Shown here: one piece after another, positions 1 through 30,850 of the stretch
Position numbering within the stretch: position 1 is the stretch's first letter
Layout: the number at the start of each line of letters is the position of its first letter
From: a virus
Lineage: Duplodnaviria > Heunggongvirae > Uroviricota > Caudoviricetes
Strand: one strand, 5' to 3'
DNA length: 30,850 bases
Virus record (IMG/VR): IMGVR_UViG_2917875804_000003
Translations under genes and position numbers: made by a program
The notes under the pieces: model-generated
Told to the model about the DNA's origin: nothing
Seen by the model: only the letters and a program-made list of their open reading frames with translations
Databases searched by the model: none

Positions 1-174
1 ATGTACTTCGTTGGCAATAGCGATGACGATAAAGCAGCTGAGGCCACGAAGGTATGCTCTAACACAGACACTCAGAGAAACTTTGATCAGAACCTGCTCG
101 ATACGGTGACCAAATGCAAACCATTGATTGAACGTTTGGTAAAATATGAATTTAATGGACTGATGGAATGTTAG
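1..174 (+). CDS. hypothetical protein, 5'-truncated by window edge
   Basis: Open frame 1 from window start to TAG at 172-174; AT-rich; no recognisable motif. Confidence 0.2.
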   Translation: MYFVGNSDDDKAAEATKVCSNTDTQRNFDQNLLDTVTKCKPLIERLVKYEFNGLMEC

Positions 175-350
175 ATCCTATGTTTTCACATGACCGAATA
201 GATAGCAAAAAGAACCAGTTAACCTTCATTGGTGATAAGGTCAAATTCACCAATGGCTTCAATACCAAAATGACCATGACTTATGCTTGCACACTTGATC
301 TGCAAACTAAAGGAGTTGTGGACTTCAAGATTTCGGAAGAAAAGCTGTAG
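168..350 (+). CDS. hypothetical small protein (60 aa)
   Basis: ATG at 168, same strand as neighbouring small ORFs; AT-rich; no recognisable motif. Confidence 0.3.
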   Translation: MLDPMFSHDRIDSKKNQLTFIGDKVKFTNGFNTKMTMTYACTLDLQTKGVVDFKISEEKL

Positions 351-393
351 CAATTCCGCAGCCAGATTAACCTTCACTTAAGGATATTTGCAA

Positions 394-651
394 ATGGCTA
401 CCAGATACCAAACTGAGCTTGCCCTAAAGGCATTATTAACAGAGTTAAATCACTCAGGATGCGATTTGTATGAGCTAATTGAAAGAACAATTCTTCGTAT
501 GCAACAAGAACGTCTTTACATTAAAGAGGACTCTCACCGCGAAAGAGGTGGGGCAGAAGATGTCCTTTTCAGAGAAACAGAAAATCTCGTTGGTAAACGT
601 CCCCAGACTAAACCTGCTGACATTAATTCATTCGATATTGAAGATTTCTAA
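394..651 (+). CDS. hypothetical protein (~85 aa)
   Basis: ORF track 388..651 begins at TTG; first ATG at 394 has AAGGA about 10 nt upstream. No recognisable motif. Confidence 0.35.
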   Translation: MATRYQTELALKALLTELNHSGCDLYELIERTILRMQQERLYIKEDSHRERGGAEDVLFRETENLVGKRPQTKPADINSFDIEDF

Positions 652-696
652 TGTTAATTGCCGAATTATAATCAATTCGGCTTAAATATTTATTTC

Positions 697-1336
697 ATGG
701 ATATAAAAATGGACATATTTGAAAAGGGTAAGCTACTGTTATTTGTGCTTTTCATCATGCCCGGCTTTATTAGCATGAGAGTTTACAGACTCTTTCACCC
801 ATCTGCGGATTCTGACACTTCAAAAATTCTGATAGATGTAGTTTCTTATAGCTGCATAAATTATGCATTCCTATTAATACCAATATATCTAATTGAAGAA
901 AATGATATATTCCTTACTAGTCCAATCCTTTATTATTTATTTTATTTCTGTGTATTAATAGTTATCCCTGTACTACTACCTATGTTTTTAATATTTATTC
1001 GCAACTGTGAAATGGTCAAACGTTTCCTACCTCACCCTATTGGGCGTTCATGGGACTACTTTTTTTTCAACCAGACAATGCTGTTGGGTGCTGGTTACAC
1101 TTAAGAATGGTAAAAAATATGGTGGCTATTATGGTAGTGCTTCATTTGCATCAAGTAGTCCCGAACCGGAGCAAATATATCTAGAAAAACATTGGGCACT
1201 AGATGACAATTGTGATTTCGATCACGAACTAACCGATACATTAGGGATAATTATATTGACTAATGAAATAGAAAGTGTTGAATTTATTAAAGTACATAGT
1301 AGTAATCCTAGCAAAAGTGAGGCTGAAAATGGTTGA
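697..1336 (+). CDS. hypothetical membrane protein with C-terminal soluble domain, interrupted by a frame change in a T8 run (1060-1067)
   Basis: ORFs 658..1104 (hydrophobic, several predicted TM segments) and 1007..1336 join into one ~210-aa frame if the T8 run is read as T7. First ATG at 697. Confidence 0.4.
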
Positions 1337-1517
1337 AGATAAACCTGCTAACAATACAAGAACTATCCACGATGGCTGGCAACCTGTAGAAAAAGGTTAC
1401 CAGCCTACAAGCAGGCCAGACCAACAAAACAATGGCTACCAACCACCACGCCAGACCCAGCAAACCCAACATATTGCTCCGCCACCTAAAAAAACGTTAG
1501 TTAAAACCAGTTGTTGA
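1329..1517 (+). CDS. hypothetical small Gln/Pro-rich protein (62 aa)
   Basis: ATG at 1329 preceded by GAGG; low-complexity sequence with repeated YQP; may be spurious. Confidence 0.2.
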   Translation: MVEDKPANNTRTIHDGWQPVEKGYQPTSRPDQQNNGYQPPRQTQQTQHIAPPPKKTLVKTSC

Positions 1518-2154
1518 TGCCACAACTGATAAATTTCAGTTTTGAAATCATACACAAAGTATGTACAGCCCGCGTAGTTCCTATCTTCACGGGCTTCATG
1601 TTCTCATAACCATTCAGCACGAAAGTATCCTCCCCCTCCCGCATAAAACTAAATTACCAATTAAATATCAACACGGTAGAAACTTCATCATATCCACCGT
1701 CGATCCTTTCCACTGAAAAATACTGAAATTCTTTTCCATCTTTTCAGTTCACGTTAGCCACTAATCTCTCAGTAATGACGCTGTCCGTGTTGGTGGTTTG
1801 AAGAAAAAGCAAAATGAAAAAATTTTATCGATCCAGAAACCGCAGGCGGGTGCGGTGTAGCGCCGTTTTTGTCTGCGAAGGATTTATTTTGTCACCATAT
1901 CACCATACCAGCGCAACGCTACAATTCTGATCTTTTATACTTAGTGACCGAGTTATATTTGTTATTAAAGGGTTAATAATCCGTCTGCAGATGTCTATGA
2001 CAAGATAAGAAAGATGTTTTGTTAGTAATTCAACTAATTATTTGGGATTAAGTAGCCAATTATCAGTTCCGACCACATAACTTAATATTGTAGGCAGAAA
2101 ATCAGATCATTCTCATGTTACGATAATCCTCAGGATTATTAGGGAGAATAATTT

Positions 2155-2752
2155 ATGAGTAACAACAAAAAGTCTCATTATGAGGATATGAAGAAGTTGT
2201 TGTGCGCGGACATACTGCACAGCAGTAAAAAAATTCTCCTGGAGGAGAATCATACTACGTTGCTGGAGACAACCCGGACACAGATTCATGTGTTGGTGGA
2301 GGATAGCGAATTGCCTTTACTGTCAGGGAGGGAAATCAAGTATTAAGTGGGCACGAAGAATCCACCGGAGACTTGTTTCAAAATACAATACTGATATTGG
2401 ATTGGGGGCACAGATCGGGGAAAAATTCAAAATTTATCACTTCGTTGGAATAGTCATTTGTCCCCAGGCTGTGATTGGAAAAAATGTTCGTATCCGACAA
2501 AACACAACGATTGGATTAAAAACAGTTGAAGGAATCAAAGCCATCAGGATCGGAGACAATGTCGAGATTGGCGCAAATTCATGCATCATCGGTGATGATC
2601 TGACCATTGGTGATAATGTGACAATTGGTGCTATGTCATTCGTTAACCGAAACATTCCTGCCAATAGTGTCTTTATAACCCGCAGAGCCGCACAACTACT
2701 ACCGCTTGATACGCACTCCACCTCTAACTATCTTGAACTACACAACAACTGA
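2155..2752 (+). CDS. hexapeptide-repeat (left-handed beta-helix) acetyltransferase, WcaB/CysE-like; apparent frameshift near 2320-2346
   Basis: ATG 2155 with GGGAG RBS. C-terminal frame (2288..2752) has tandem [LIV]G-x-x-x-x hexapeptide repeats (IGDNVEIGANSCIIGDDLTIGDNVTIGAMSFV) that align by eye with the serine/colanic-acid acetyltransferase fold. N-terminal 63 aa are in a different frame. Confidence 0.55.
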
Positions 2753-2806
2753 AATACTGCTATCAGCAAGTCCAGAACGTTTCAACTTATCATGTGAGTG
2801 TCAGCA

Positions 2807-5752: not shown

Positions 5753-6329
5753 TTCCAAGTATCTCCGGCCATACAATTTGCGGCGCATCTTCCGGTTGAA
5801 TACGGTTCAGTAAAACGCGGTATTTTTTCCAGGCGGTAAGCAGCAGTGCTTCTTCTTCGGTCGCCATGTCTAAATCAACGGCATCCTGCAATGTGGCAAT
5901 AGCGTCATTGGCCTGTTTAAGTAGTCTTTTCTTTTCGGCGTCTGCCTCGCTGACTAATGCAATTCGCATGGCATCCGCATCATCCACCCACGTCTTACCA
6001 TTCCATTTTTGCCAGGCATTAGCCGGTGCTAACGTGGTTGTCCCTTCCGGGTAAGCGCCTGGCTCGGAGATCACCAGTTCATTACCGTTTTCTGTATCAA
6101 ACAACACCTCACCACGATGATCCTCACGAGAAACCCATTTTTGCTTCTCTGAATCATAAATTGCCACAAACCCCGCTTTTATTACCGGTGGTTTTATTGT
6201 GGTGCAGTTGGCTGGCAGTCCGGTATACGCAGGTATAAAAGCGTCACCCAAACCAATAAATTCATTCGTGTCAGAACGCAGGTTATAAACGGTAACTGTT
6301 TGATCCGTTTCACTCATTTTAAAAGTCAT
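5742..6329 (-). CDS. tail fibre assembly protein (Tfa / gpG-like chaperone)
   Basis: C-terminus ...LQDAVDLDMATEEEALLLTAWKKYRVLLNRIQPEDAPQIVWPEI is the classic Tfa signature; immediately downstream of the tail fibre gene (TAATG overlap). Confidence 0.8.
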   Translation of the reverse strand: MTFKMSETDQTVTVYNLRSDTNEFIGLGDAFIPAYTGLPANCTTIKPPVIKAGFVAIYDSEKQKWVSREDHRGEVLFDTENGNELVISEPGAYPEGTTTLAPANAWQKWNGKTWVDDADAMRIALVSEADAEKKRLLKQANDAIATLQDAVDLDMATEEEALLLTAWKKYRVLLNRIQPEDAPQIVWPEILGNVA

Positions 6330-7904
6330 TATGCGAGTCTCACTATGTAGTTAAATACGATGTTTTTAACGGTCGTTTCTTCATTGCCCGACGCGGCGAC
6401 AGTAATGGTGTGACTGTGTGCGCCTATTGCTACGGTATGAGAGTGAGCTCCAATTCCTACAGAATGGCTATGTGCGCCAATCCCTACAATATGAGCATGG
6501 TTGCCAGCCAAATCCGTATTACCAGTTGTTACGTTATCGCCACCCTGACCTCTATTGATATCTCCGTTTTGAGTGGCCTGCCCCTTAACATATGTATGAG
6601 TATGTGCACCAGTTGTATCGGTTGTTTTGGTTCCGTAATCAAATGTGCTCACAGCTCTAGTGCCGTAGTCAAAGGATGATGTTGACTTCGTCCCCAGATC
6701 GGTACTGAATGCACTAGCGGTGTGGGCATGGGATTTATTGCCATCATCTTCATAGGACAAAACTGCACGGCCATCAGGTTTTCCTTTGATCGTCTGGCGG
6801 CGCATATCAGGAAGAACACCCGATGGGTATGCAATAGCCAGTCGCTGGTAAGCCACTGGATCAAACACCTGCCCCTGCATGATTGCGTGACCCGCTGGTG
6901 GAATATCAGTCGGCCAAGGAAATGGTACTCCAACCGGCACAACATCGCTAATGCTTAAGACCGCCAGCTCACCCAGCCCAAGATTTTTTCTGGCTTCCGC
7001 CTTGTCATTGATATCGGCAAGGTTTGCATCCTTACGCAAAAAATCGCTGCTGGCCTGTTGATCGCTCAGACTGCCTTTTGGCCTTAAATCCGTGATGTTG
7101 CCATCCACATCAATGCTGGCCACCGCAAATACAAAATGCTGAATACCGTTCTGAACATAATCAGTCAGATTTTCTACAACCGTGACTTTACTCTGTACAC
7201 TCCAGACACTGCTCAGAATCCCTGTCCAGCACACATCCAGCCAGACTTTTACCGACTTTGTCGTCACTGTAATATCCTGATTCGCATCCAGTGACACACG
7301 CAGTCCAGCCACATACCCCGTGCCTTTCGTGACATAAAACTGATTGCCGGTTTTGGCTACCAGATACCCGTTACCAAAAAAACGCCGCCGCGCCATAAAT
7401 ATCTGTATTTTCCAGACGCTGGCGCTCATCAATTCCGGCCAAACGTGCAGTAAAATCAATCTGCCAGGTTTCAGCGGGCGTATTAATCCCAGTTTCTGTT
7501 TGTGCACCGTTGTACTCCATCAGAAACGAGCGGGTCAGCACGTTCCCCTGTTGCCCTTCTTTTGTTTTCAGTTTCTGCTGTGCTGGTGCATGAACAATCA
7601 TTGCCAGCGTACCGCTGGCCTTATTGAGCAGACCAATCCAGTTAAAACTGAAATCCCCCACATCTGCGCCCAGCACTACGGAATAGACCACCCTGTTTTC
7701 ATCCACCACACCGGTACGGGTAACAGCTTGCCGGTGAACAATCTGTGCTGTCGGGGGCAACCCTTCATTGCGATCAACAGGGATATCCGCGTTTAAATCC
7801 GGCACACTGGCAAAAACAAATTCGTCCAGTAGTACCGGTTCACCTGTTGCGCCCTGCTGTGCTTTCCAGTTTTCAAACGCCAGTGTGATGGCTGTCTGTG
7901 ACAT
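6329..7904 (-). CDS. tail fibre protein, reading frame broken at an A7 run (7376-7382 on + strand; T7 in the coding sense)
   Basis: ORF 7371..7904 (conserved fibre N-terminus) and ORF 6329..7507 (distal part with HxH repeats) fuse in frame (...[19 protein letters not shown]...) if the run is 6 nt. Followed by Tfa. Confidence 0.75.
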
Positions 7905-9679: not shown

Positions 9680-10023
9680 AAATCCACCTGCGCAGAGATC
9701 CCACCAAAATCGTATGTACTCGCGGTTACCCACAGCCGCTTCTGACTTTCTTCACTGATTTCCACCGTACCCGGCACAATGCGTTCATCATATTCAATCA
9801 GTAATTCCATACGGGTAAAAATATCCGCTCTCATTGTCGGGCTACGTTCGGCTATTAATTCCGTAGCCAAACCACTTTCAATAATGGAATGAATAATGTC
9901 CTGCCCGATGCTTTTTCGGTTATTACATAATTCAGGTTCATTACCGGTATTCAGAACAAAATCACCGCCCTGAATCAGCAAATCAATATAAAGAACATTA
10001 CTCATGCACCAAGCTCCTGCCAT
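9676..10023 (-). CDS. baseplate protein, gpW/gp25-like
   Basis: 115-aa ORF immediately upstream of J-like gene and coupled to it; size and position match gpW (115 aa in P2). Confidence 0.5.
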   Translation of the reverse strand: MAGAWCMSNVLYIDLLIQGGDFVLNTGNEPELCNNRKSIGQDIIHSIIESGLATELIAERSPTMRADIFTRMELLIEYDERIVPGTVEISEESQKRLWVTASTYDFGGISAQVDL

Positions 10024-11968
10024 TCCATAAGCTGGAGTGGAGAAAATGCTTCTTTGGTATGGAAATGCACTTCACCAATTTTCCGGCTGTTATCGATTAC
10101 AGATGTTGTGTTGCTGCTGATTGTTTTACTGATACCACCATTATCCACACCTTTTAAATCGCCCCCCGTAGACAGCGTATTACCAGTTAATGGCTGTAAG
10201 GTTTCACTGGCCAGAGAAATATCCACGCCGGGAATTTCATTCAGTTTCTGAACAATCCAGTTCCACGACTTAAGAAATCCCTCTTTGATTGAGTTCCAGA
10301 CAATATCAAACAGCGACATAATACCGGTGGCCATTCCCTTTAATGCCTCAGATGGCGAAAATCCTGTCAGCATAGAAATGAAGCTGTTCCATCCATCACT
10401 GACATATTGCCAGGCTATAACAAAGATCCCCGCTAGCCATTTCACTACGGCAGCGCATACCTGAAAGGCTTCGGTATTCATCACCGATGCTTTTATCGTG
10501 TTCCAGTGCTTAACCAGCAGATAACAACCAGCAACAAGCAGCGCAATGGCACCAATCACAAGCAGGATTGGCCAGCTCATCAGATTGATACCAATTCCGG
10601 TCATCATTGCGGCCATGCGTACCGCCAGTAACGCGCCGCGTAAAAACTTCAGCGTGGTATTCCAGGCGATTACCGCCATTTGCGCCAGCCAGACAGTCGC
10701 CGTGTAGATTTTCGTAACCGCCGTTAACGCCCCCCAGATCCCACGTAATCCCATCATGATGAATCTGGATACCCCCATCACGATATTGCAACCGCACCCA
10801 CGGCGGCAAAGCTCAGTAGTGCCACCGACGCATAACCAATCACACGGGCAATGTTAGGAAACAACTGCATCCAACGAGCAAAGGTCTGCCCCATATCAGC
10901 CAGGCGATTCAGAACCGGATACAGCACCGGGATCAGCGTCAGTCCGATCACGGTCTGAATGGCTTTCAGGATTTGTACAAAGCGATCCCACGGCTTAACC
11001 ATTTTTTGTGCCATTTCCTGGGTACGCTTCAGGCCGTCCGCGCCGCCCAGTTCGGTGATGTTCCGCTGAAGTAACGCGACATTGCCGTAAAGATGTTTAA
11101 CCACTGCCGAACTGTCACCAAAGGCTGCATCCAGCTCCGCCTGGGCTTTCAGGTTCCCTTCAAGGCTTTTGCCATATTTGCCCTGCAACTTGATCAGCAT
11201 TTCAGGCATGGACAGCATTTTGCCGGTGGAGTCAGTAAAGGACAGCCCCAGCTTTTTAGCGCCATCAATCGCGCCGGTCATAAATCCTTCATAGGCGCTG
11301 CTGGCTTCCGTTCCCAGCGTCCGCTGAAGTTGCCCCAGCACGGCCAGCTGTTCATCCAGCCCCACACCGTAGTTAGTCCCGACGCCGCGCGCACCTTCCA
11401 TCAAATCCTTGATAGTGGCCATTTCTGTGCCAAAGGTTTTGCGCATATAAACCATCTTGCCTGCCAACTGCTCGGCAAATTCCACCTTGCCCAGTCTGGC
11501 GGCATCGGCGGAAAAGTTACCGAACATCTGCCCCATAAATTCCGCCGTGTCCGCCGCTGTGGACTTGAGCGCAAACGCCAGGGTATTGGCGACTTTCGTC
11601 ACCTTCGGCAGTTCATTACCCGTCAGTCCGGCAATGGAAGCGTTAATATTTTCCGTGGATTTAACAAACTCCACCGCACTGGCACCATAGGTTGTACTAA
11701 AGCGCAGGGCATCACGCTGAACTGTCTTAAGTGCTGAATCATCAATACCTTTTGCGGCAGCATCATTCAGCGCGTCATACATTTCAATTGCCGGTGATAA
11801 AGCACTTTTGATCTCCATCCCGATGCCTGCCAGCGCCAGAACGCCACCACCGATCTGCATAAAGGCTGCTTTTGATTTTTCCGCAAAGCCGGTGACGTTA
11901 CCTTGCACCTGTTTTAACGGGCGGGATAATTTATCAATCAGGCTTAATGTAAAATCTAATTGTTTCAT
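10002..11968 (-). CDS. tail tape measure protein, encoded as two overlapping ORFs (10778..11968 and 10002..10781) with a frame change at a GTGATG junction
   Basis: N-terminal ORF is long, helical and Ala/Gly-rich; C-terminal ORF is a hydrophobic multi-TM segment typical of tape-measure C-termini. Sits directly after the chaperone frameshift extension. Confidence 0.7.
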
Positions 11969-12416: not shown

Positions 12417-12697
12417 TAACTCTCTCTTAAAATAATTTCATCCACTAACTGATTATGACGTGCAGCACACTGACCATATAACTCAAGATAAATCGTCAGT
12501 AATTCCGCTGAGTCTTTTCCTGTCGCACCATTCAGGCGCGGCAACTGCGTGGCACATTTAGTTTTCAGATTTTCCTGATAACGCACGTTCGGTACCGGTT
12601 GCGGCACGGTTGTACATGCTGACAAACTCATCAGACAGGCAACGACTGGTAAAAACAGGCTTAAGCACTTCAGTGCGTATCTCTCGCGGTGCCACAT
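12413..12697 (-). CDS. o-spanin-like outer-membrane lipoprotein (Rz1-like)
   Basis: Signal peptide with lipobox LSAC (...LFLPVVACLMSLSACTT...); overlaps the 3' end of the i-spanin candidate in another frame. Exact start uncertain. Confidence 0.55.
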   Translation of the reverse strand: MWHRERYALKCLSLFLPVVACLMSLSACTTVPQPVPNVRYQENLKTKCATQLPRLNGATGKDSAELLTIYLELYGQCAARHNQLVDEIILRESY

Positions 12698-12897
12698 TTT
12701 TTTAACGCCTCCAGTTTATCTTCCAGCGCTCTGGCCGAATCACTGGCAATACCCTGCATTGCTTTTCGCGATTCAGTACCGGCCACCTGCGCCGCTGTAT
12801 TGATTGCCAGCTCTAAGCTATCACGCCGCCAGTCAGCGGTTAGCCAGCCCCAGACAAACGCCAGCGCCACCACAACCAACCACTGCCCGCTGCTCAT
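12670..12897 (-). CDS. i-spanin-like protein (Rz-like)
   Basis: 75 aa, N-terminal TM segment (WLVVVALAFVWGWL) then charged helical region; directly downstream of the endolysin. Confidence 0.5.
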   Translation of the reverse strand: MSSGQWLVVVALAFVWGWLTADWRRDSLELAINTAAQVAGTESRKAMQGIASDSARALEDKLEALKKCGTARDTH

Positions 12898-19459: not shown

Positions 19460-19621
19460 ATCCCCCCCTGTTCCACTCCCTGACGCTGCAAATCAATTAT
19501 TGCCAAATAAAACCACCACCGCATTACGCTTTATTCTGAACAGTTCGGTTATAACGCTTTACCGAACAGACACGAATTAACACCACCGTTTTTTCATCAC
19601 AGCCACGGCATAATTATCCGC
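19460..19621. promoter_or_regulatory. divergent late promoter region between scaffold O and terminase P
   Basis: ~160-bp intergenic region between divergent operons; contains an imperfect dyad (GTTCGGT ... ACCGAAC, ~19531-19556) that could be an Ogr-type activator site. Not verified. Confidence 0.3.
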
Positions 19622-22775: not shown

Positions 22776-22810
22776 AAAGCCCCCAGAATGAGGGCTTTTC
22801 CCTTCCTTTT
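22776..22810 (+). terminator. rho-independent terminator after the ogr-like gene
   Basis: AAAGCCC-cagaatga-GGGCTTT hairpin followed by a T-rich tract, directly after the stop at 22773-22775. Confidence 0.7.
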
Positions 22811-23081
22811 TAACCATTTTGTGAACCTCTTCCGCAAGTTCTCCAATCCAGGCCAAAGCGATTGTTTTTTTCTCTCTGGTTACTTTCGTAATCATGGGCA
22901 ATTTTAGCTAATAATTCAATGCGTTCCAGCTGTGCCGACGCCTCCAAAAGATCCATTTAGCCCCCACAAGCAATAGTGACTGGATAAGTATCCAGTATAC
23001 CGTACACCGTAAAGCACGAATAGTGAAATTTAATTTCCTTCCATCTACTGAGAAATGCATGCATTTCACATATTTACCCTG

Positions 23082-25103
23082 CTAGACCCACCCCGGCCAT
23101 AACTCGTTTAATGGCTCGTTTTGAATCTCTTTAAGCCACCCATTACGGTAAACCAGTCCCCCTTGGCCAAACATCAAACCACTACCCCGCAGGAGAATGG
23201 CTATTTCTTCATTAGAACCGTTAAAACCCCGACTGCATAATTCCAGTTTTAACCGTCTGAGGATTCCCCCCTCCGTACAGTTATTGACAGAACTCCAAGG
23301 GGCGGCGTTGCCGCCAGAAAACCCCGCCTCCGCTGGCGCTTCGGCCAACTTCGCAACCTTTTGCCACTTAACCAGACGGGTGCAAACTTCCGAATCAGGA
23401 ACCAAAGGAGAATAAACCCCCTGTACGCGCTGCACGTCCTCTGCGTACTCGTTGCCCTGTTCCGTAATTTCATAGGCCAGACGAACAACCAGATCACGGC
23501 GGGCAACCAGTGCACCGCCCTGCGCCTGGGTATATGCAGCCCAGTCCCCGACATCAGCAGCGGCCAGAACCGCATCCATTCTGCGATCGGTCAGCACCTG
23601 ATCCCGCAACCGACGCAGCTCACGCCAGACACTTACCGGCGCACCACCAATCTGCTGAAACTGACGAATACGCCAGCGTGAAGCCCATGCAGAAACGGAC
23701 TTAGCCATATCACGCAGGTTTTCGCCGGTTTCTTCGTCCTGCTCACCATCCAGCGCAAAACCATCAATATTTTTTGAAATGTATTTCGCGATGTAGCCCG
23801 TGGCCGAACCTTTGGCGGGATCGATAACTTCAACATGAAAACGCGCCTTCAGCGCCTTTTCAGATTGCAGTTCTTCAGAATCGGTAATTCTGGCGTGATA
23901 GCAAAGAATATCGCGTACCGTGTCCACGTCATGCGGACGCATAAAAAGCAACATATGCCAGTGCGGTGTCCCGTCATGGTGAGGCTCAACAACCCGAAAC
24001 CCAAATACATGAATACCCGCACGCGAGATCGCTGCGCGTGCTTTTGCCCATACGCCGCATAAATAGCGCTGGGTATCCTGCGGTGTACATCCATCCCATT
24101 GCGATACAAAGCCACCTTTGCTGTGCACTGCGTGGAAACGTGATGGCGCGGTGATGGTGTAAAACTCACCGGCCAGCCCTTCTTCATTGGCCATATCTTC
24201 AAACCCTCGCATTCTTACCATTAGTTCACATCGACGGATCGCCGGATTTGCAATGCTGCGGTGCACCATGCTGTCCAGTGCAATGCGCAGCCCCTCATCA
24301 TTCAGCAGATCAAACTTTTTAAAGAACTCCAGATTCCGCTTTTTCTGGTCTATCCATTCGTCCAGTGTTTTGCGGGATACATAAGCGCTGGCCGCTTTTT
24401 GTACCTGTCCCACCGCGATGGCCATATGTTCGCGCTGCATATCACGCGCACGTTTAAGACGTAGGTACCACCATTCCGGCGCCATCATGCGCAGTATCCC
24501 GGATTCCGCCTTACGCATTTCCAGTTGACCTTCATTGGCCTCATGTTCAGCCCAGTACGGCGGCTGGTTATTCAGCATCAGGCAACCCGCGCAAAGATGG
24601 CGGTATGATTCCAAGGTGCGGCGATGCAGCTCTCTGGCGTCGTCAGTGCCGGAGTCAAACTGTTCGGTGAAGTCATAAAGTGACTGGGAAATCCAACCAG
24701 ATACCTGGCCAGCCAGTTTTTTAAGATCAGGACGGTCTAGTGACGGCAAGCGCTCCAGCGACTTACCAAAAGTAAGATCAGCAGCGTCAGCGGCCAGCGA
24801 GTAACGCGCAGCCACTTTGCGCAGACGTGGCAATACACTCCCGCCGATAGTCTGGCGCAGGAATGTATTGGCACGACAACGCCCGTCACGACCAGCAAAC
24901 AGCTTTTCGTAACGACGGCCAAAATACCCGGCTAACCAGTCGGGTATCTCATGCAGGTACCGGGCTCTCCATTCATAATCCTGCGGATTTACAGCCCACA
25001 AACGGCGTTCTGTGATTGTCGCGTCTGCCGGTATGCAAGATGCGAAAGTTTCACGCCGCCACGTATCGACAGCATAGAAGTGTTCCTTTATAGCCAACAT
25101 CAT
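23082..25103 (-). CDS. A: replication initiation protein A (rolling-circle HUH endonuclease, P2/186 gpA family)
   Basis: 673 aa with HUH motif (GTPHWHMLLF) and catalytic tyrosine motif (TGYIAKYISK); last gene of the early operon. Confidence 0.9.
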   Translation of the reverse strand: MMLAIKEHFYAVDTWRRETFASCIPADATITERRLWAVNPQDYEWRARYLHEIPDWLAGYFGRRYEKLFAGRDGRCRANTFLRQTIGGSVLPRLRKVAARYSLAADAADLTFGKSLERLPSLDRPDLKKLAGQVSGWISQSLYDFTEQFDSGTDDARELHRRTLESYRHLCAGCLMLNNQPPYWAEHEANEGQLEMRKAESGILRMMAPEWWYLRLKRARDMQREHMAIAVGQVQKAASAYVSRKTLDEWIDQKKRNLEFFKKFDLLNDEGLRIALDSMVHRSIANPAIRRCELMVRMRGFEDMANEEGLAGEFYTITAPSRFHAVHSKGGFVSQWDGCTPQDTQRYLCGVWAKARAAISRAGIHVFGFRVVEPHHDGTPHWHMLLFMRPHDVDTVRDILCYHARITDSEELQSEKALKARFHVEVIDPAKGSATGYIAKYISKNIDGFALDGEQDEETGENLRDMAKSVSAWASRWRIRQFQQIGGAPVSVWRELRRLRDQVLTDRRMDAVLAAADVGDWAAYTQAQGGALVARRDLVVRLAYEITEQGNEYAEDVQRVQGVYSPLVPDSEVCTRLVKWQKVAKLAEAPAEAGFSGGNAAPWSSVNNCTEGGILRRLKLELCSRGFNGSNEEIAILLRGSGLMFGQGGLVYRNGWLKEIQNEPLNELWPGWV

Positions 25104-25149
25104 ATGCTGGCCTCAAGAAGCGATGGCGAAGGACATTTTAGTGGTGTTT

Positions 25150-25383
25150 TTATTGCCATGCCGCACCGCCTTTGCTGCAAATAGCCTCGGCCTCTTCTCG
25201 GATCAACTCAACGATTTCCGCTGCGCTTAAACCTTCATTTGCTGCATGAGTGGCCAGCTTATCCAGGCGGATGGAACACAGGTCAGCAACTGCGGCTTTA
25301 CCTTCCTGCGTGGCTTTAGCAAGCATGTCCAGTAGATCAGTACCAAGCTTTGTTGCGGGTAAATCCTGATGTGTCATATACAT
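25150..25383 (-). CDS. hypothetical early-operon protein (~78 aa)
   Basis: ATG at 25383 with AAGGGA RBS (ORF track 25150..25434); immediately upstream of gene A. Confidence 0.4.
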   Translation of the reverse strand: MYMTHQDLPATKLGTDLLDMLAKATQEGKAAVADLCSIRLDKLATHAANEGLSAAEIVELIREEAEAICSKGGAAWQ

Positions 25384-26692: not shown

Positions 26693-27196
26693 TCATATCA
26701 GGCCGGTGGCATTGATTGTGACCAGCGCTACCGCAGCGGCCAGGACGGGCGTAGAGTGAAAACGACTTTCCACGGTATAAGCCAGCACGGATAAGCTACG
26801 AATTGCATCGCGGGCGCGATCCAGAATTTGAGTACGACGAGCGGCAGTCATATGGCAAGTTGATACGGCTTCCCCAGCAATCGCCCCCACGCACGCAGTG
26901 GCGCTTAGAGCACACAGTTGCATGTTGCCTTCAGTGGCATTATTCACAGGCACGGATGGCAGGCAGTTAATTTGGCTTAACATCCCATCCAGTAAACGTG
27001 CATCTTCGGTGTAATCCGTAATGGATATAAGCTCATCGCATGTTAAACGGTGCGGTTGCGCTGGATTTAGTTTGTTGCGCAGGATCTGCGGCCTTATACC
27101 AACGGCAACAGCCACATCTTCAAGATTGTGCTCAATTGCAAATGCTCGGCAAGCCGCATCAAATCGCGCATGTTTAGAGATCTGGTAATCAAACAT
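26693..27196 (-). CDS. cII: CII-type transcriptional activator (phage 186 CII family)
   Basis: MFDYQISKHARFDAACRAFAIEHN...LRNKLNPAQPHRLT...CLPSVPVNN closely resembles 186 CII as I recall it; 167 aa; follows Apl/Cox. Confidence 0.75.
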   Translation of the reverse strand: MFDYQISKHARFDAACRAFAIEHNLEDVAVAVGIRPQILRNKLNPAQPHRLTCDELISITDYTEDARLLDGMLSQINCLPSVPVNNATEGNMQLCALSATACVGAIAGEAVSTCHMTAARRTQILDRARDAIRSLSVLAYTVESRFHSTPVLAAAVALVTINATGLI

Positions 27197-27226: not shown

Positions 27227-27448
27227 TTACGCGTTAAGTGAAATATCACATTCACTTAAAGCCTGAATGGTTAGCGCGGCCATGTTGACCTCAACCAGGC
27301 CTTTCTTCTGCTTACCCTTAGGTTTAATGGGCAATTTCCCGTATTCGATCAGATTTCTGGCAGTTTCTTTGTTTGTACCAGTACGACGGCAATATTCGTC
27401 TAAAGGCAGGTAAGGTTCCGGTATGATGATTGTAATGCTCGGACGCAT
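27227..27448 (-). CDS. Apl/Cox-like excisionase / Cro-type regulator
   Basis: ~74-aa product from ATG 27448 (GGAG RBS); first gene of the operon divergent from cI; small basic DNA-binding-like protein. Confidence 0.55.
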   Translation of the reverse strand: MRPSITIIIPEPYLPLDEYCRRTGTNKETARNLIEYGKLPIKPKGKQKKGLVEVNMAALTIQALSECDISLNA

Positions 27449-27567: not shown

Positions 27568-28148
27568 GTGAAACTACAAATTGAATTTTCTCATGGCGGA
27601 TCAGAAGTCTTGGACAGAGTCATCCAGGCGTATGGTTTCAACACAAAATTAGCCCTGGCCGAACATCTTGATATAGCAAGTAGCAGCCTGGCTAATCGCT
27701 ACAAGAGGGATTTTTTTTCCAGCAGATATCGTTGTTAGATGCATGGCTGAAACGGGAGCAACTCTGGAATGGCTTGCGACTGGGCAAGGAAGAAAGTTTA
27801 ACGATGACGAATTAGACATCATGAAACTGCCGCGTAAGAAGATTGTGGACGGAAAACTCTATGATTCCGGTTTGCTAATGCTCGATAAGGTTACTTTTTT
27901 ACCTGGTAAGCCTTTACCACAGAATCCAATCTGTGTGATTGACAACGCAATGCAGTACATTGTTGATCAACACTTTCCCGAAGTTTACGACGATGATTGG
28001 TTAGTTGAAATTGAAGGAAAAACAAGTGTGAGAACCCTTACGCGCATCCCCGTAGGCAAAGTTCGAGTGAGTGGCGTTGGGATGGCATTTGATTGCGCTA
28101 TCGAAGATATAAAAAATTTTAGGTCGTATTATCTTAACTATAAAATAA
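27568..28148 (+). CDS. cI: CI repressor, phage 186 CI-like; frame interrupted twice at homopolymers (T8 27711-27718, A6 28111-28116)
   Basis: GTG 27568 with AAGGA RBS. With one base removed per run the product (~190 aa) reads VLDRVIQAYGFNTKLALAEHLDIASSSLANRYKRDFFPADIVVRCMAETGATLEWLATGQG ... WLVEIEGK ... DIKILGRIILTIK, paralleling 186 CI end to end. Confidence 0.75.
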
Positions 28149-28162
28149 TAAGGAAAATTATA

Positions 28163-28734
28163 ATGATAGATTACAAGACTGCATCTAAAGACCAATTAAA
28201 AGTAGAAATGAAACGATTGTCCGCCGCTGTTTCAGATACGCCATTTGGTACAAAAAAAAGAATTTTTTCATCTTCCCGAAGTTTTAAACACCGGCGAGGA
28301 ACCGCTTGGCATAGTAAGCGGTATGATGGATGGCAACACCTGGTTAATAACTTTAACTAACCAACGCGTTATCTTCCTCGATAAAGGGATGATATTTGGT
28401 GTTAAGCAGGTCGATATTAGCCTTCGTAACATTGTAAGCGTTGGCGGAAAGACTGGACTGATATTTGGTGAGATAATGATTTCAACAAGTGGACAGAATT
28501 ACACCATAAAAAAACGTTATAAAATCCTCCGTAATTCCTTTTACCAACCTTGTTAATGAGACAAGGAATAGTCTGGACAAGCCACAAGTTATCACCGCTC
28601 CTACAAGCTCCAACGAAAAATCTTCATTTGATGATGTCATGGATAAAATTGAACGTTTGGCTGAAATGAAAGCAGAAGGCATTCTTACTGAAGAAGAATT
28701 TCAGCAGCAAAAACAACGCATTTTAAACAGCTAA
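28163..28734 (+). CDS. cargo protein with bacterial PH-like domain and SHOCT-like C-terminal motif; frame interrupted at A8 (28252-28259) and A7 (28508-28514)
   Basis: ATG 28163 with AAGGAAA RBS. Middle frame ...LPEVLNTGEEPLGIVSGMMDGNTWLITLTNQRVIFLDKG...GEIMISTSG... has a bPH-like pattern; C-terminus ...DKIERLAEMKAEGILTEEEFQQQKQRILNS resembles SHOCT. AT-rich relative to flanking cI and int. Confidence 0.5.
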
Positions 28735-28737
28735 GCT

Positions 28738-29826
28738 ATGTCTGTAAGAAAATTAACAAATGGCCAGTGGATTGCCGATTTCTACACGGTGGATCGAAGC
28801 AATGGTAAAGCCGGTAAGCGTATTCGTAAAAAATTCGCTACAAAAGGTGAAGCCCTGGCCTACGAGAACTATACGCTTCAGCAAGTGGAGAACTCCCCCT
28901 GGCTTGGCGAGGGTAAAGACCTCCGTACTCTAAGCGACCTAATCAACATGTGGTACGAACGCCACGGCGTAGCTTTGCGCAACGGTCAAAAGCGTAAAGA
29001 CGCAATGACATGGGCGGCAGAGTGTATGGGATTCCCGCTGGCCACAGAGTTTAATGCTCAACTGTTTACAGCATACCGCGCAAAAAGGCTTGATGGGCAT
29101 TATGCCCGCACTAACAGAGTATCCAAGGTTTCCCCGAAAACAATGAACCTTGAACATGCTTACTTTCTGGCTATGTTCAATGAGCTTAAACGGATTGGAG
29201 AATGGTCAGCCCCTAACCCACTGGAAAACGTCAGACAGTATCGCACTGATGAAACCGAAATGGCTTTCCTCACTGCTGAAGAAATTGATCGGCTTTTGCT
29301 GGAATGCAAACGCAGTAAAGTAAGTTACTTAGAGTTAGTAGTAAAAATTTGCCTGGCGACCGGCGCAAGGTGGAATGAAGCGGCGACACTCAAAAGCTCC
29401 CAGATTGCTGGCGGAAAAGTCACCTTCATAAAAACAAAAGGGAAAAGGAACCGTACCATTCCCTTAGATGATGAACTTCTGGCTGAAATTTCGGAAACAA
29501 AAGGCGCTCTGTTTCCGAAGCCCTGCTATAACGCTTTTCGTTCCGCCCTGGAACGTGCAGGTATTGAATTGCCTTCTGGTCAGCTAACCCACGTATTACG
29601 CCATACATTTGCCAGCCACTTTATGATGAATGGCGGGAACATTCTGGTTCTGCAAAAAATTCTCGGCCACGCTGACATCACTATGACAATGCGTTATGCC
29701 CATTTCGCCCCAAGCCACCTTGAAGATGCTATGCGACTTAACCCCTTAAAAATGTCGCAAAAAATGTCGCTGCAGCTTAGAAATACTGCCGAATACTCAC
29801 AGACATTAACTAACGTAACTTATTGA
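28738..29826 (+). CDS. int: tyrosine integrase (P2/186 Int family)
   Basis: 362 aa; N-terminus MSVRKLTNGQW...KKFATKGEALAYENYTL parallels P2/186 Int; C-terminal catalytic region HVLRHTFASHFMMNGGNILVLQKILGHADITMTMRYAH (R...H-x-x-R...Y). Confidence 0.9.
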   Translation: MSVRKLTNGQWIADFYTVDRSNGKAGKRIRKKFATKGEALAYENYTLQQVENSPWLGEGKDLRTLSDLINMWYERHGVALRNGQKRKDAMTWAAECMGFPLATEFNAQLFTAYRAKRLDGHYARTNRVSKVSPKTMNLEHAYFLAMFNELKRIGEWSAPNPLENVRQYRTDETEMAFLTAEEIDRLLLECKRSKVSYLELVVKICLATGARWNEAATLKSSQIAGGKVTFIKTKGKRNRTIPLDDELLAEISETKGALFPKPCYNAFRSALERAGIELPSGQLTHVLRHTFASHFMMNGGNILVLQKILGHADITMTMRYAHFAPSHLEDAMRLNPLKMSQKMSLQLRNTAEYSQTLTNVTY

Positions 29827-30346: not shown

Positions 30347-30850
30347 ATGAACTTAACCCTTAAAGAATCGCTTGTTTCCCGTAGCCGGGTTTTTAGCCCG
30401 TGGACTGCGTTCTACTTTTTACAGTCGCTATTGATTAACCTTGGTTTAGGTTATCCCTTTAGTTTTCTCTATACCGCCGCTTTTACTGCCGTTTTGCTTT
30501 TGTTATGGCGGATGTTGCCGCGTGTGCAAAAAACCTTAATAGGTGTCTGTTCGCTGGTGGCGGCCTGTTATTTTCCTTTTGCTCAGGCGTACGGTGCGCC
30601 TAACTTCAATACATTGCTGGCGCTGCATTCCACCAATATGGAAGAGTCGACCGAAATTCTTACGATCTTCCCGTGGTATAGCTATCTGGTCGGCTTATTT
30701 ATTTTTGCGCTCGGCGTGATTGCGATCAGGCGGAAAAAAGAGGATGAAAAAGCACGCTGGAATAAATTCGACACCCTGTGTCTGGTATTCAGTGTGGCGA
30801 CATTTTTTTGTCGCTCCGGTTCAAAATCTCGCCTGGGGCGGCGTATTTAA
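30347..30850 (+). CDS. opgE: phosphoethanolamine-transferase-type inner-membrane protein, N-terminal part (OpgE/YbiP-like), 3'-truncated by window edge
   Basis: MNLTLKESLVSRSRVFSPWTAFYFLQSLLINLGLGYPF... multi-TM N-terminus that I recognise as E. coli YbiP/OpgE; open to the window end; same orientation as mntS, as in the E. coli K-12 order. Confidence 0.6.
   Translation: MNLTLKESLVSRSRVFSPWTAFYFLQSLLINLGLGYPFSFLYTAAFTAVLLLLWRMLPRVQKTLIGVCSLVAACYFPFAQAYGAPNFNTLLALHSTNMEESTEILTIFPWYSYLVGLFIFALGVIAIRRKKEDEKARWNKFDTLCLVFSVATFFCRSGSKSRLGRRI

What the first reader, a model, noticed from the sequence alone, without database searches (positions are those of the whole stretch)
27568..28148. 186-type CI repressor appears doubly frameshifted
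The immunity repressor is the one gene a stable lysogen cannot lose. Its frame is interrupted twice at homopolymers, giving a 47-aa N-terminal HTH fragment and a separate C-terminal frame that reads through into the downstream cargo gene. Either the sequence is wrong here or the prophage is repressor-defective and must be held silent by other lesions.
Basis: seen in the sequence. Interest (0 to 1): 0.45.

Follow-up and report, generated by a model that had tools for sequence, protein, structure and literature searches.

The report
Sequencing-error frameshifts in prophage repressor
The two "frameshifts" in this prophage's CI repressor gene are almost certainly Ion Torrent homopolymer-length errors in the deposited assembly, because the same DNA in other assemblies, without a single base substitution, encodes an intact 192-aa repressor; the finding is an artefact.

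Summary
Compared with intact homologues, the window's 186-type cI (27568-28148) carries exactly two extra bases: T8 instead of T7 at 27711-27718, and A6 instead of A5 at 28111-28116. The biological reading is not supported.

The window comes from GenBank PDIC01000004.1, Escherichia cryptic clade II strain E4208. That draft was built only from Ion Torrent single-end reads at 45x (PMC6639607).

Over about 36 kb, another assembly of identical sequence (Logan SRR8835205) shows 0 substitutions and 21 one-base indels. Twenty of these are +1 in homopolymers on the deposit's side. They also break the bPH_3/SHOCT cargo gene (twice), the integrase (twice), the tail fibre, opgE and ompX (twice); three more lie in or just upstream of mntR. 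The single -1 (GG to G) splits the tape measure.

The overcall rate rises with true run length: 0.3% at 4, 2.6% at 5, 20% at 6 and 50% at 7.

A third zero-SNP assembly (Logan SRR6148339) reads T7 in cI, and its contig ends inside the A run.

Removing the two bases gives a 192-aa protein. It is 100% identical to the CI annotated in sister strains and has both CI Pfam domains. Its dN/dS against an E. coli homologue is 0.04.

Verdict: assembly artefact, and the prophage most likely has a normal repressor. Interest is very low.

The parts
27568..28148 (+). cI repressor gene (186 type) as deposited: 581 nt, which is the true 579-nt CDS plus two spurious bases. The corrected product is 192 aa.
   Evidence: Pfam PF07022 + PF16452. 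PDB 2fjr (186 CI), E=5.6e-34. The corrected protein is 100% identical to P0122.
27711..27718 (+). T8 run. It is T7 in all other assemblies. This is the first spurious frameshift in cI.
   Evidence: L001, L007-L015, L025-L027.
28111..28116 (+). A6 run. It is A5 in all other assemblies. This is the second spurious frameshift in cI. The Logan SRR6148339 contig ends inside this run.
28163..28734 (+). Cargo gene between cI and int (bPH_3 + SHOCT domains, true length 189 aa). In the deposit it is broken twice: A8 at 28252-28259 (true A7) and A7 at 28508-28514 (true A6).
28738..29826 (+). Integrase: 362 aa in the deposit and 346 aa in the twins. The C-terminus is altered by two +1 overcalls, A5/A4 at 29748-29752 and A6/A5 at 29759-29764.
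27227..27448 (-). apl/cox-like gene (73 aa), divergent from cI. Intact.
   Evidence: gene calls; equivalent gene in ESSI2_ev129.
26693..27196 (-). cII-like gene (167 aa, PF06892 Phage_CP76). Intact.
7376..7382 (-). A7 run (true A6). It splits the tail-fibre gene (6329-7904) into 392 + 177 aa instead of 524 aa.
10787..10788 (-). Single G where relatives have GG (-1). It splits the tape-measure gene (10002-11968) into 396 + 259 aa instead of 655 aa. The Logan SRR6148339 assembly shares this change.
30803..30809 (+). T7 run (true T6) in the host gene opgE. It gives 167 + 403 aa instead of 527 aa.
1060..1067 (+). T8 run (true T7). It splits the DUF6338 gene (208 aa in the twins) in the left-end cargo.
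1488..1494 (+). A7 run (true A6), left-end cargo region.
1817..1822 (+). A6 run (true A5), left-end cargo region.
2227..2233 (+). A7 run (true A6). It truncates the hexapeptide acyltransferase gene (198 aa in the twins).
12697..12703 (-). T7 run (true T6) in the lysis/spanin region. The Logan SRR6148339 assembly shares this change.
19462..19468 (.). C7 run (true C6), between the scaffold and terminase genes.
22865..22871 (-). T7 run (true T6) in a small gene: 48 aa in the deposit and 68 aa in the twins.

Best explanation
The two frame breaks in cI are homopolymer-length miscalls in an Ion Torrent-only draft assembly: T7 read as T8 and A5 read as A6. The real locus is an ordinary, intact 186-type lysogeny module. 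It has cI (192 aa, N-terminal HTH plus C-terminal oligomerisation domain), transcribed divergently from apl-cII-fil and followed by a bPH_3/SHOCT cargo gene and int. It belongs to a P2/186-like (Peduoviridae) prophage inserted between mntR and mntS of Escherichia cryptic clade II strain E4208. cI and the cargo gene collect four of the window's sixteen errors because this segment is AT-rich (40% GC). It has about four times the density of runs of 6 or more, and the miscall probability rises steeply with run length. Shown: the sequence differences, their restriction to homopolymers, their absence from other assemblies, and the platform. Inferred: that the other assemblies, not the deposit, give the true sequence of strain E4208.
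For: (1) Provenance. The window is GCA_004745305.1 PDIC01000004.1 (L019 is 100% identical). PDIC00000000 is strain E4208, sequenced with Ion Torrent single-end 35-400 bp reads at 45x and assembled with MIRA+SPAdes (PMC6639607). Ion Torrent calling accuracy falls with homopolymer length, and its high-frequency indels are mostly A/T insertions or C/G deletions (PMC3623719).
(2) Zero-SNP twin. Logan SRR8835205 contig 14 covers window coordinates -2172 to 33826. It shows 0 mismatches and 21 one-base indels, of which 20 are +1 in homopolymers of the deposit and 1 is GG to G. GenBank VATR01000017.1 shows the same indels over the 13.7 kb it covers.
(3) Length dependence. The overcalled fraction by true run length is 1/352 at 4, 3/115 at 5, 8/40 at 6 and 3/6 at 7. 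Of the 15 insertions, 14 are A/T.
(4) Other genes are hit as well: host ompX twice and opgE once, plus the integrase, tail fibre, tape measure, cargo gene and DUF6338 gene. The three sites upstream of the window (-473, -360, -348) lie in or next to mntR, which is called as 143 aa in the deposit and 155 aa in the twins. All of these genes are full length in the twins and in distant relatives.
(5) The breaks are not reproducible. Logan SRR6148339 has 0 SNPs against the window and shares two private indels with the deposit, so it is probably the same read set. It reads T7 in cI, its contig stops inside the A run at 28115, and it has its own different private indels in the capsid and other genes.
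(6) The corrected CI is 192 aa and 100% identical to P0122, annotated in sister strains such as E4694. It has full-length Pfam CI domains. Its dN/dS against the E. coli 573 CI is 0.04.
Against: No read-level data for strain E4208 could be inspected. The assignments of SRR6148339 to E4208 and of SRR8835205 to a clonal sister (E4385?) are guesses from accession-number proximity and shared indels. The read-level Ion Torrent literature reports undercalls, not overcalls, as the dominant error in long runs, whereas the deposit is biased to +1. I attribute this to the consensus and assembly procedure, but I did not show it. Two indels (10788 and 12703) are reproducible in two assemblies and could be real.
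Confidence: 0.96

Rival explanations
1. Strain E4208 really carries both +1 insertions in cI. The prophage would then be repressor-defective and kept silent by other lesions, for example the split tape measure and tail fibre.
For: The deposit shows the frameshifts. The tape-measure -1 at 10788 is seen in two assemblies, so at least one structural lesion might be real.
Against: A probable re-assembly of the same strain reads T7 in cI. Every other copy of this prophage has T7/A5. The same type of change also breaks ompX twice and opgE, with 0 substitutions over 36 kb. The segment between the two sites stays open, and the gene shows dN/dS of 0.04.
Confidence: 0.02
2. E4208 is a mismatch-repair-deficient mutator, and the homopolymer expansions are real and genome-wide.
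For: MMR loss raises +/-1 indels at homopolymers (established knowledge). The indels do sit in homopolymers, and their frequency depends on run length.
Against: MMR-deficient spectra are dominated by transitions, yet here there are 0 substitutions against 21 indels. Within the window, 15 of 16 indels are insertions (binomial p=5e-4). At about 1 frameshift per 2 kb, most genes in the genome would be inactivated. Another zero-SNP assembly carries a different indel set.
Confidence: 0.01
3. The T and A tracts in cI are contingency (phase-variable) tracts, or sites of programmed or transcriptional slippage, that modulate the repressor dose.
For: The tracts are conserved as T7 and A5 in relatives at 88-98% identity.
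Against: Length variation is not specific to cI. It occurs at 21 tracts, including intergenic and housekeeping sites. All 15 other assemblies examined encode the in-frame protein (the SRR6148339 contig covers only the first site). Restoring the frame would need two independent slippage events.
Confidence: 0.005

Closest known systems
Flow-chemistry (Ion Torrent / 454) homopolymer-length errors that create spurious frameshifts in draft assemblies
   Same: The platform is Ion Torrent. The errors are 1-nt indels in homopolymers. Their frequency rises with run length. They are mostly A/T insertions, with one G deletion. They differ between assemblies of the same sequence.
   Different: The deposit is biased to overcalls in long runs. 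Read-level studies report mostly undercalls there, so the direction probably reflects the consensus pipeline.
Coliphage 186 CI repressor (PDB 2FJR / 2FKD; Pfam PF07022 + PF16452)
   Same: The corrected protein has both domains at full length and aligns to 2fjr over residues 12-188 (E=5.6e-34). It sits divergent from apl-cII-fil and upstream of int.
   Different: It is a diverged allele, so presumably a different immunity specificity. A bPH_3/SHOCT gene is inserted between cI and int.
CI of sister Escherichia clade II prophages (P0122, e.g. RZM98233.1, Escherichia sp. E4694) and E. coli prophage CI WP_001053198.1
   Same: P0122 is 100% identical to the corrected window protein. The E. coli 573 CI is 179/192 identical, the same length, and at the same mntS-side integration site.
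   Different: Only the two extra bases in the deposit.
Escherichia phages ESSI2_ev129 / ev015 / ev040 (Peduoviridae, Quadragintavirus)
   Same: About 93% nucleotide identity over 96-97% of the structural and replication modules, with the same gene order.
   Different: A different repressor (a 165-aa 'transcriptional repressor'), so a different immunity region. They carry extra methyltransferase genes that the window lacks.

Membership tests
186-type CI repressor | N-terminal CI helix-turn-helix domain (PF07022) | tested here: met
   Corrected protein residues 13-76, profile positions 1-64 of 65, E=2e-25.
186-type CI repressor | C-terminal CI oligomerisation domain (PF16452) | tested here: met
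   Residues 87-188, profile positions 2-100 of 101, E=1e-30. Matches 2fjr and 2fkd.
186-type CI repressor | Position in the switch: divergent from apl-cII-fil and upstream of int | tested here: met
   Gene calls with PF06892 (CII/CP76), PF10893 (Fil) and PF00589 (integrase).
186-type CI repressor | Uninterrupted reading frame | tested here: inconclusive
   Broken twice in the deposit. Intact in all 15 other assemblies of the locus, including zero-SNP twins; the SRR6148339 contig covers only the first site. The reads of this strain were not inspected.
186-type CI repressor | Binds the pR/pB/FL/FR operators and confers immunity | not testable with these tools
   Needs an immunity or DNA-binding assay.
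Homopolymer sequencing artefact | Data from a flow-based platform without orthogonal polishing | tested here: met
   Ion Torrent single-end reads only, MIRA+SPAdes.
Homopolymer sequencing artefact | Indels confined to homopolymers, with frequency rising with run length | tested here: met
   In the window, 15 of 16 indels are in runs of true length 4-7. Rates are 0.3%, 2.6%, 20% and 50%.
Homopolymer sequencing artefact | No accompanying substitutions relative to an independent assembly of the same sequence | tested here: met
   0 mismatches over about 36 kb against SRR8835205_14, 13.7 kb against VATR01, and 21 + 6 kb against SRR6148339_28.
Homopolymer sequencing artefact | Conserved housekeeping genes hit as often as dispensable ones | tested here: met
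   ompX twice and opgE once are broken in the deposit and intact in the twins and in E. coli. mntR is called as 143 aa in the deposit and 155 aa in the twins.
Homopolymer sequencing artefact | Read-level heterogeneity of run length at the sites | not testable with these tools
   The only hint is indirect: the Logan contig of SRR6148339 ends inside the A run at 28115.
Genuinely pseudogenised prophage repressor | The lesion is reproducible in independent assemblies or strains | tested here: not met
   T7/A5 everywhere else. The fused 205-aa ORF is not on record in any assembly.
Genuinely pseudogenised prophage repressor | Relaxed selection or additional degradation of the gene | tested here: not met
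   dN/dS is 0.04 against the E. coli 573 CI. No stops appear once the two bases are removed.

The most novel reading that the evidence does not exclude
Some of the indels may be real in strain E4208. The best candidates are the tape-measure -1 at 10788 and the T7 at 12703, which recur in a second assembly. Much less likely, so is the cI T-tract expansion. That would make this a recently inactivated prophage whose repressor tract behaves as a hypermutable site.
Probability: 0.03. Interest if true: 0.25.

Novelty: not a real feature. Interest (0 to 1): 0.03.

Why it matters
It matters only as quality control. Assemblies from this project (PDHW-PDIL, Ion Torrent only) carry roughly one spurious frameshift per 2 kb in this region. 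They are concentrated in AT-rich accessory DNA such as prophage immunity and cargo genes. Any scan for pseudogenes, defective prophages, phase-variable tracts or gene fusions in these records will produce false positives like this one. A zero-SNP comparison with Logan or other assemblies is a quick way to filter them out.

Tried and rejected
1. Megablast of the cI/cargo segment against the phage collection found no match. Against complete E. coli genomes it found only 88%-identical cI genes. Those were useful as an outgroup but could not decide the question.
2. Exact-pattern scans allowing T7 or T8 found nothing in genome contigs or viral contigs.
3. The 205-aa fused ORF is not on record as a called protein. 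The window's 362-aa integrase occurs only in the source contig, because it is itself an artefact.
4. I first thought L002, L003 and L005 were missing from the Python sandbox. They are stored inside multi-record files.
5. At first the -1 near window 153 (against E. coli SC477) looked like another error. The twins share it, so it is genuine.
6. I considered a mutator lineage, phase variation and a truly defective prophage, and rejected them for the reasons given under the rival explanations.
7. A PADLOC screen of the cargo proteins found no hits.
8. A literature search for the VATR/VATT assemblies returned nothing, so their platform is unknown.

Full report
**Observation**

The region reads as the first-stage reader said. 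A GTG at 27568 opens an ORF that stops after 56 codons, just past a T8 run at 27711-27718. A second frame is open from 27743 to 28360. It passes an A6 run at 28111-28116 and runs into the next gene.

Alignment with the intact 579-nt cI of an E. coli prophage (strain 573, 88% nucleotide identity, same GTG start) shows exactly two gaps. They are T8 vs T7 and A6 vs A5.

Removing one base from each run gives a 192-aa protein. It has full-length Phage_CI_repr (PF07022) and Phage_CI_C (PF16452) domains. It matches the crystal structure of coliphage 186 CI (2fjr, E=5.6e-34). So the gene identification and both frame breaks are confirmed.

**Surroundings**

The window is a P2/186-like prophage. Its structural and replication modules are about 93% identical to Escherichia phages ESSI2_ev129, ev015 and ev040 (Peduoviridae). 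cI is transcribed divergently from apl, cII and fil, and is followed by a cargo gene and int. The prophage sits between mntR and mntS/opgE/ompX in a host about 92% identical to E. coli.

Early on it was clear that cI is not the only broken gene:
- The cargo gene after cI is split at an A8 and an A7 run.
- The tail fibre is 392 + 177 aa instead of 524 aa.
- The tape measure is 396 + 259 aa instead of 655 aa.
- The host gene opgE is 167 + 403 aa instead of 527 aa.
- ompX is broken twice, once in the run at its start codon.

A reference-free test showed that all three 8-base runs in the window lie where deleting one base fuses two ORFs.

**Provenance**

An exact-protein look-up placed the window on GCA_004745305.1, contig PDIC01000004.1 (L019 is 100% identical). 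PDIC00000000 is Escherichia cryptic clade II strain E4208. It was sequenced only with Ion Torrent single-end reads (35-400 nt, 45x) and assembled with MIRA and SPAdes (PMC6639607).

Ion Torrent accuracy is known to fall with homopolymer length. Its high-frequency indels are mostly A/T insertions and C/G deletions (PMC3623719).

**Decisive comparison**

The corrected CI is 100% identical to P0122, a 192-aa CI annotated in sister clade II strains. Contigs encoding P0122 and neighbouring window proteins were retrieved.

One of them, Logan assembly SRR8835205 contig 14 (39 kb), covers window coordinates -2172 to 33826. It has 0 substitutions and 21 one-base indels. Twenty are +1 in homopolymers of the deposit. 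Given as window coordinate and deposit/twin run length, they are:
- -473 (T8/T7), -360 (A6/A5), -348 (T5/T4)
- 1067 (T8/T7), 1494 (A7/A6), 1822 (A6/A5), 2233 (A7/A6)
- 7382 (A7/A6), 12703 (T7/T6), 19468 (C7/C6), 22871 (T7/T6)
- 27711 (T8/T7), 28111 (A6/A5), 28252 (A8/A7), 28508 (A7/A6)
- 29752 (A5/A4), 29759 (A6/A5), 30803 (T7/T6)
- 32282 (T7/T6), 32487 (T8/T7)

The remaining one is a -1 (GG to G at 10788).

In that twin, every affected gene has the length seen in distant relatives: CI 192, cargo 189, integrase 346, opgE 527, ompX 171, tail fibre 524, tape measure 655 and DUF6338 208 aa. A separate GenBank assembly (VATR01000017.1) agrees with the twin over the 13.7 kb retrieved, again with 0 substitutions.

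Four more distant copies (98.3% identical, from ENA metagenome and Logan contigs) differ from the window by 16-30 substitutions. Their only indels are the four in cI and the cargo gene.

**Error model**

Taking the twin as truth, the fraction of runs overcalled in the window is 1/352 for true length 4, 3/115 for 5, 8/40 for 6 and 3/6 for 7. Fourteen of the 15 insertions are A/T and the single deletion is G.

The cI-plus-cargo segment is 40% GC and has 5.1 runs of 6 or more per kb. The structural genes have 1.3 per kb. This explains why four of the sixteen in-window errors fall in 1.2 kb.

**Non-reproducibility**

A third zero-SNP assembly, Logan SRR6148339 contig 28, shares two private indels with the deposit (10788 and 12703). 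It lacks those at 7382, 19468 and 22871. It adds three private deletions of its own, which break the capsid and other genes.

In cI it reads T7, so CI is open for 182 codons. Its contig ends exactly inside the A run at 28111-28115. That is what a de Bruijn assembler does when reads disagree on run length.

From accession-number proximity and the shared indels, this is probably the E4208 read set itself. That assignment is an inference.

**Selection**

Against the E. coli 573 CI, the corrected gene shows dS 0.82, dN 0.033 and dN/dS 0.04, with no internal stops. There is no sign of decay.

**Rivals**

- A real double frameshift would have to coexist with 19 other one-base indels, 0 substitutions, two hits in ompX, and disagreement with a likely re-assembly of the same strain.
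- A mismatch-repair mutator would give mainly transitions and both indel directions. Here 15 of the 16 in-window indels are insertions (p=5e-4).
- Phase variation or programmed slippage would be locus-specific, which this is not.

Together I give these rivals under 4%.

**Caveats**

I could not inspect reads. The +1 bias of the deposit differs from the read-level undercall bias reported for long runs. I attribute it to the consensus pipeline without proof.

The tape-measure -1 and the T7 at 12703 recur in two assemblies and may be real. That is separate from the cI question.

**Comparison with known and novelty**

The gene works like, and after correction qualifies as, a 186-type CI. It has both defining domains and the defining position in the switch. 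Function was not tested.

The "double frameshift" belongs to the well-known class of flow-chemistry homopolymer artefacts. Nothing here is novel.

**Verdict**

This is not a real biological feature. Interest is 0.03.

Noticed in passing
window 10787-10788 and 12697-12703: The tape-measure -1 (GG to G, giving 396+259 aa instead of 655) and a T7 (vs T6) in the lysis/spanin region are the only indels that the deposit shares with the Logan SRR6148339 assembly. They are absent from SRR8835205 and from the more distant relatives that cover these sites. They are either systematic errors of one Ion Torrent run or real lesions that would make the E4208 prophage tail-defective.
   Followed up: partly
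window ~150-175 (ORFs 1-174 and 168-350): A -1 relative to E. coli SC477 splits a 165-aa hypothetical gene into 57 + 60 aa. Unlike the other breaks, all zero-SNP twins share it, so it appears to be a genuine pseudogene in the left-end cargo.
   Followed up: partly
window 28163-28734: A bPH_3 (bacterial PH) + SHOCT gene, 189 aa when corrected, sits between cI and int. The related E. coli 573 prophage has cI immediately followed by int. It is probably a moron in the lysogenic operon. It has no PADLOC hit and its function is unknown.
   Followed up: partly
window 28738-29826: The deposited integrase (362 aa) has a false C-terminal extension caused by two +1 overcalls 7 nt apart (A5/A4 and A6/A5). 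The true protein is 346 aa.
   Followed up: yes
window 1-2800 and 3.2 kb upstream (L029/L030): Left-end cargo lies between mntR and the phage baseplate gene. It includes DUF6338 (208 aa true), a hexapeptide-repeat acyltransferase (198 aa true) and small ORFs. All are AT-rich and several are broken in the deposit. None has a PADLOC hit. Host mntR is also shortened in the deposit (143 vs 155 aa).
   Followed up: partly
L004 7243-7766 (source contig, 1.4-1.9 kb right of the window): Host ompX carries two +1 overcalls (T7/T6, and T8/T7 at the start codon), so no ompX protein is annotated in the deposit. This is a clear marker of assembly quality.
   Followed up: yes
window 25103-25150 vs ESSI2_ev129 22790-24648: The window prophage lacks the two DNA methyltransferase genes that ESSI2_ev129 carries next to the replication gene. 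It also has a different repressor from the ESSI2_ev phages (192-aa 186-type vs 165 aa). So the structural module is shared while the immunity and accessory modules are mosaic.
   Followed up: no
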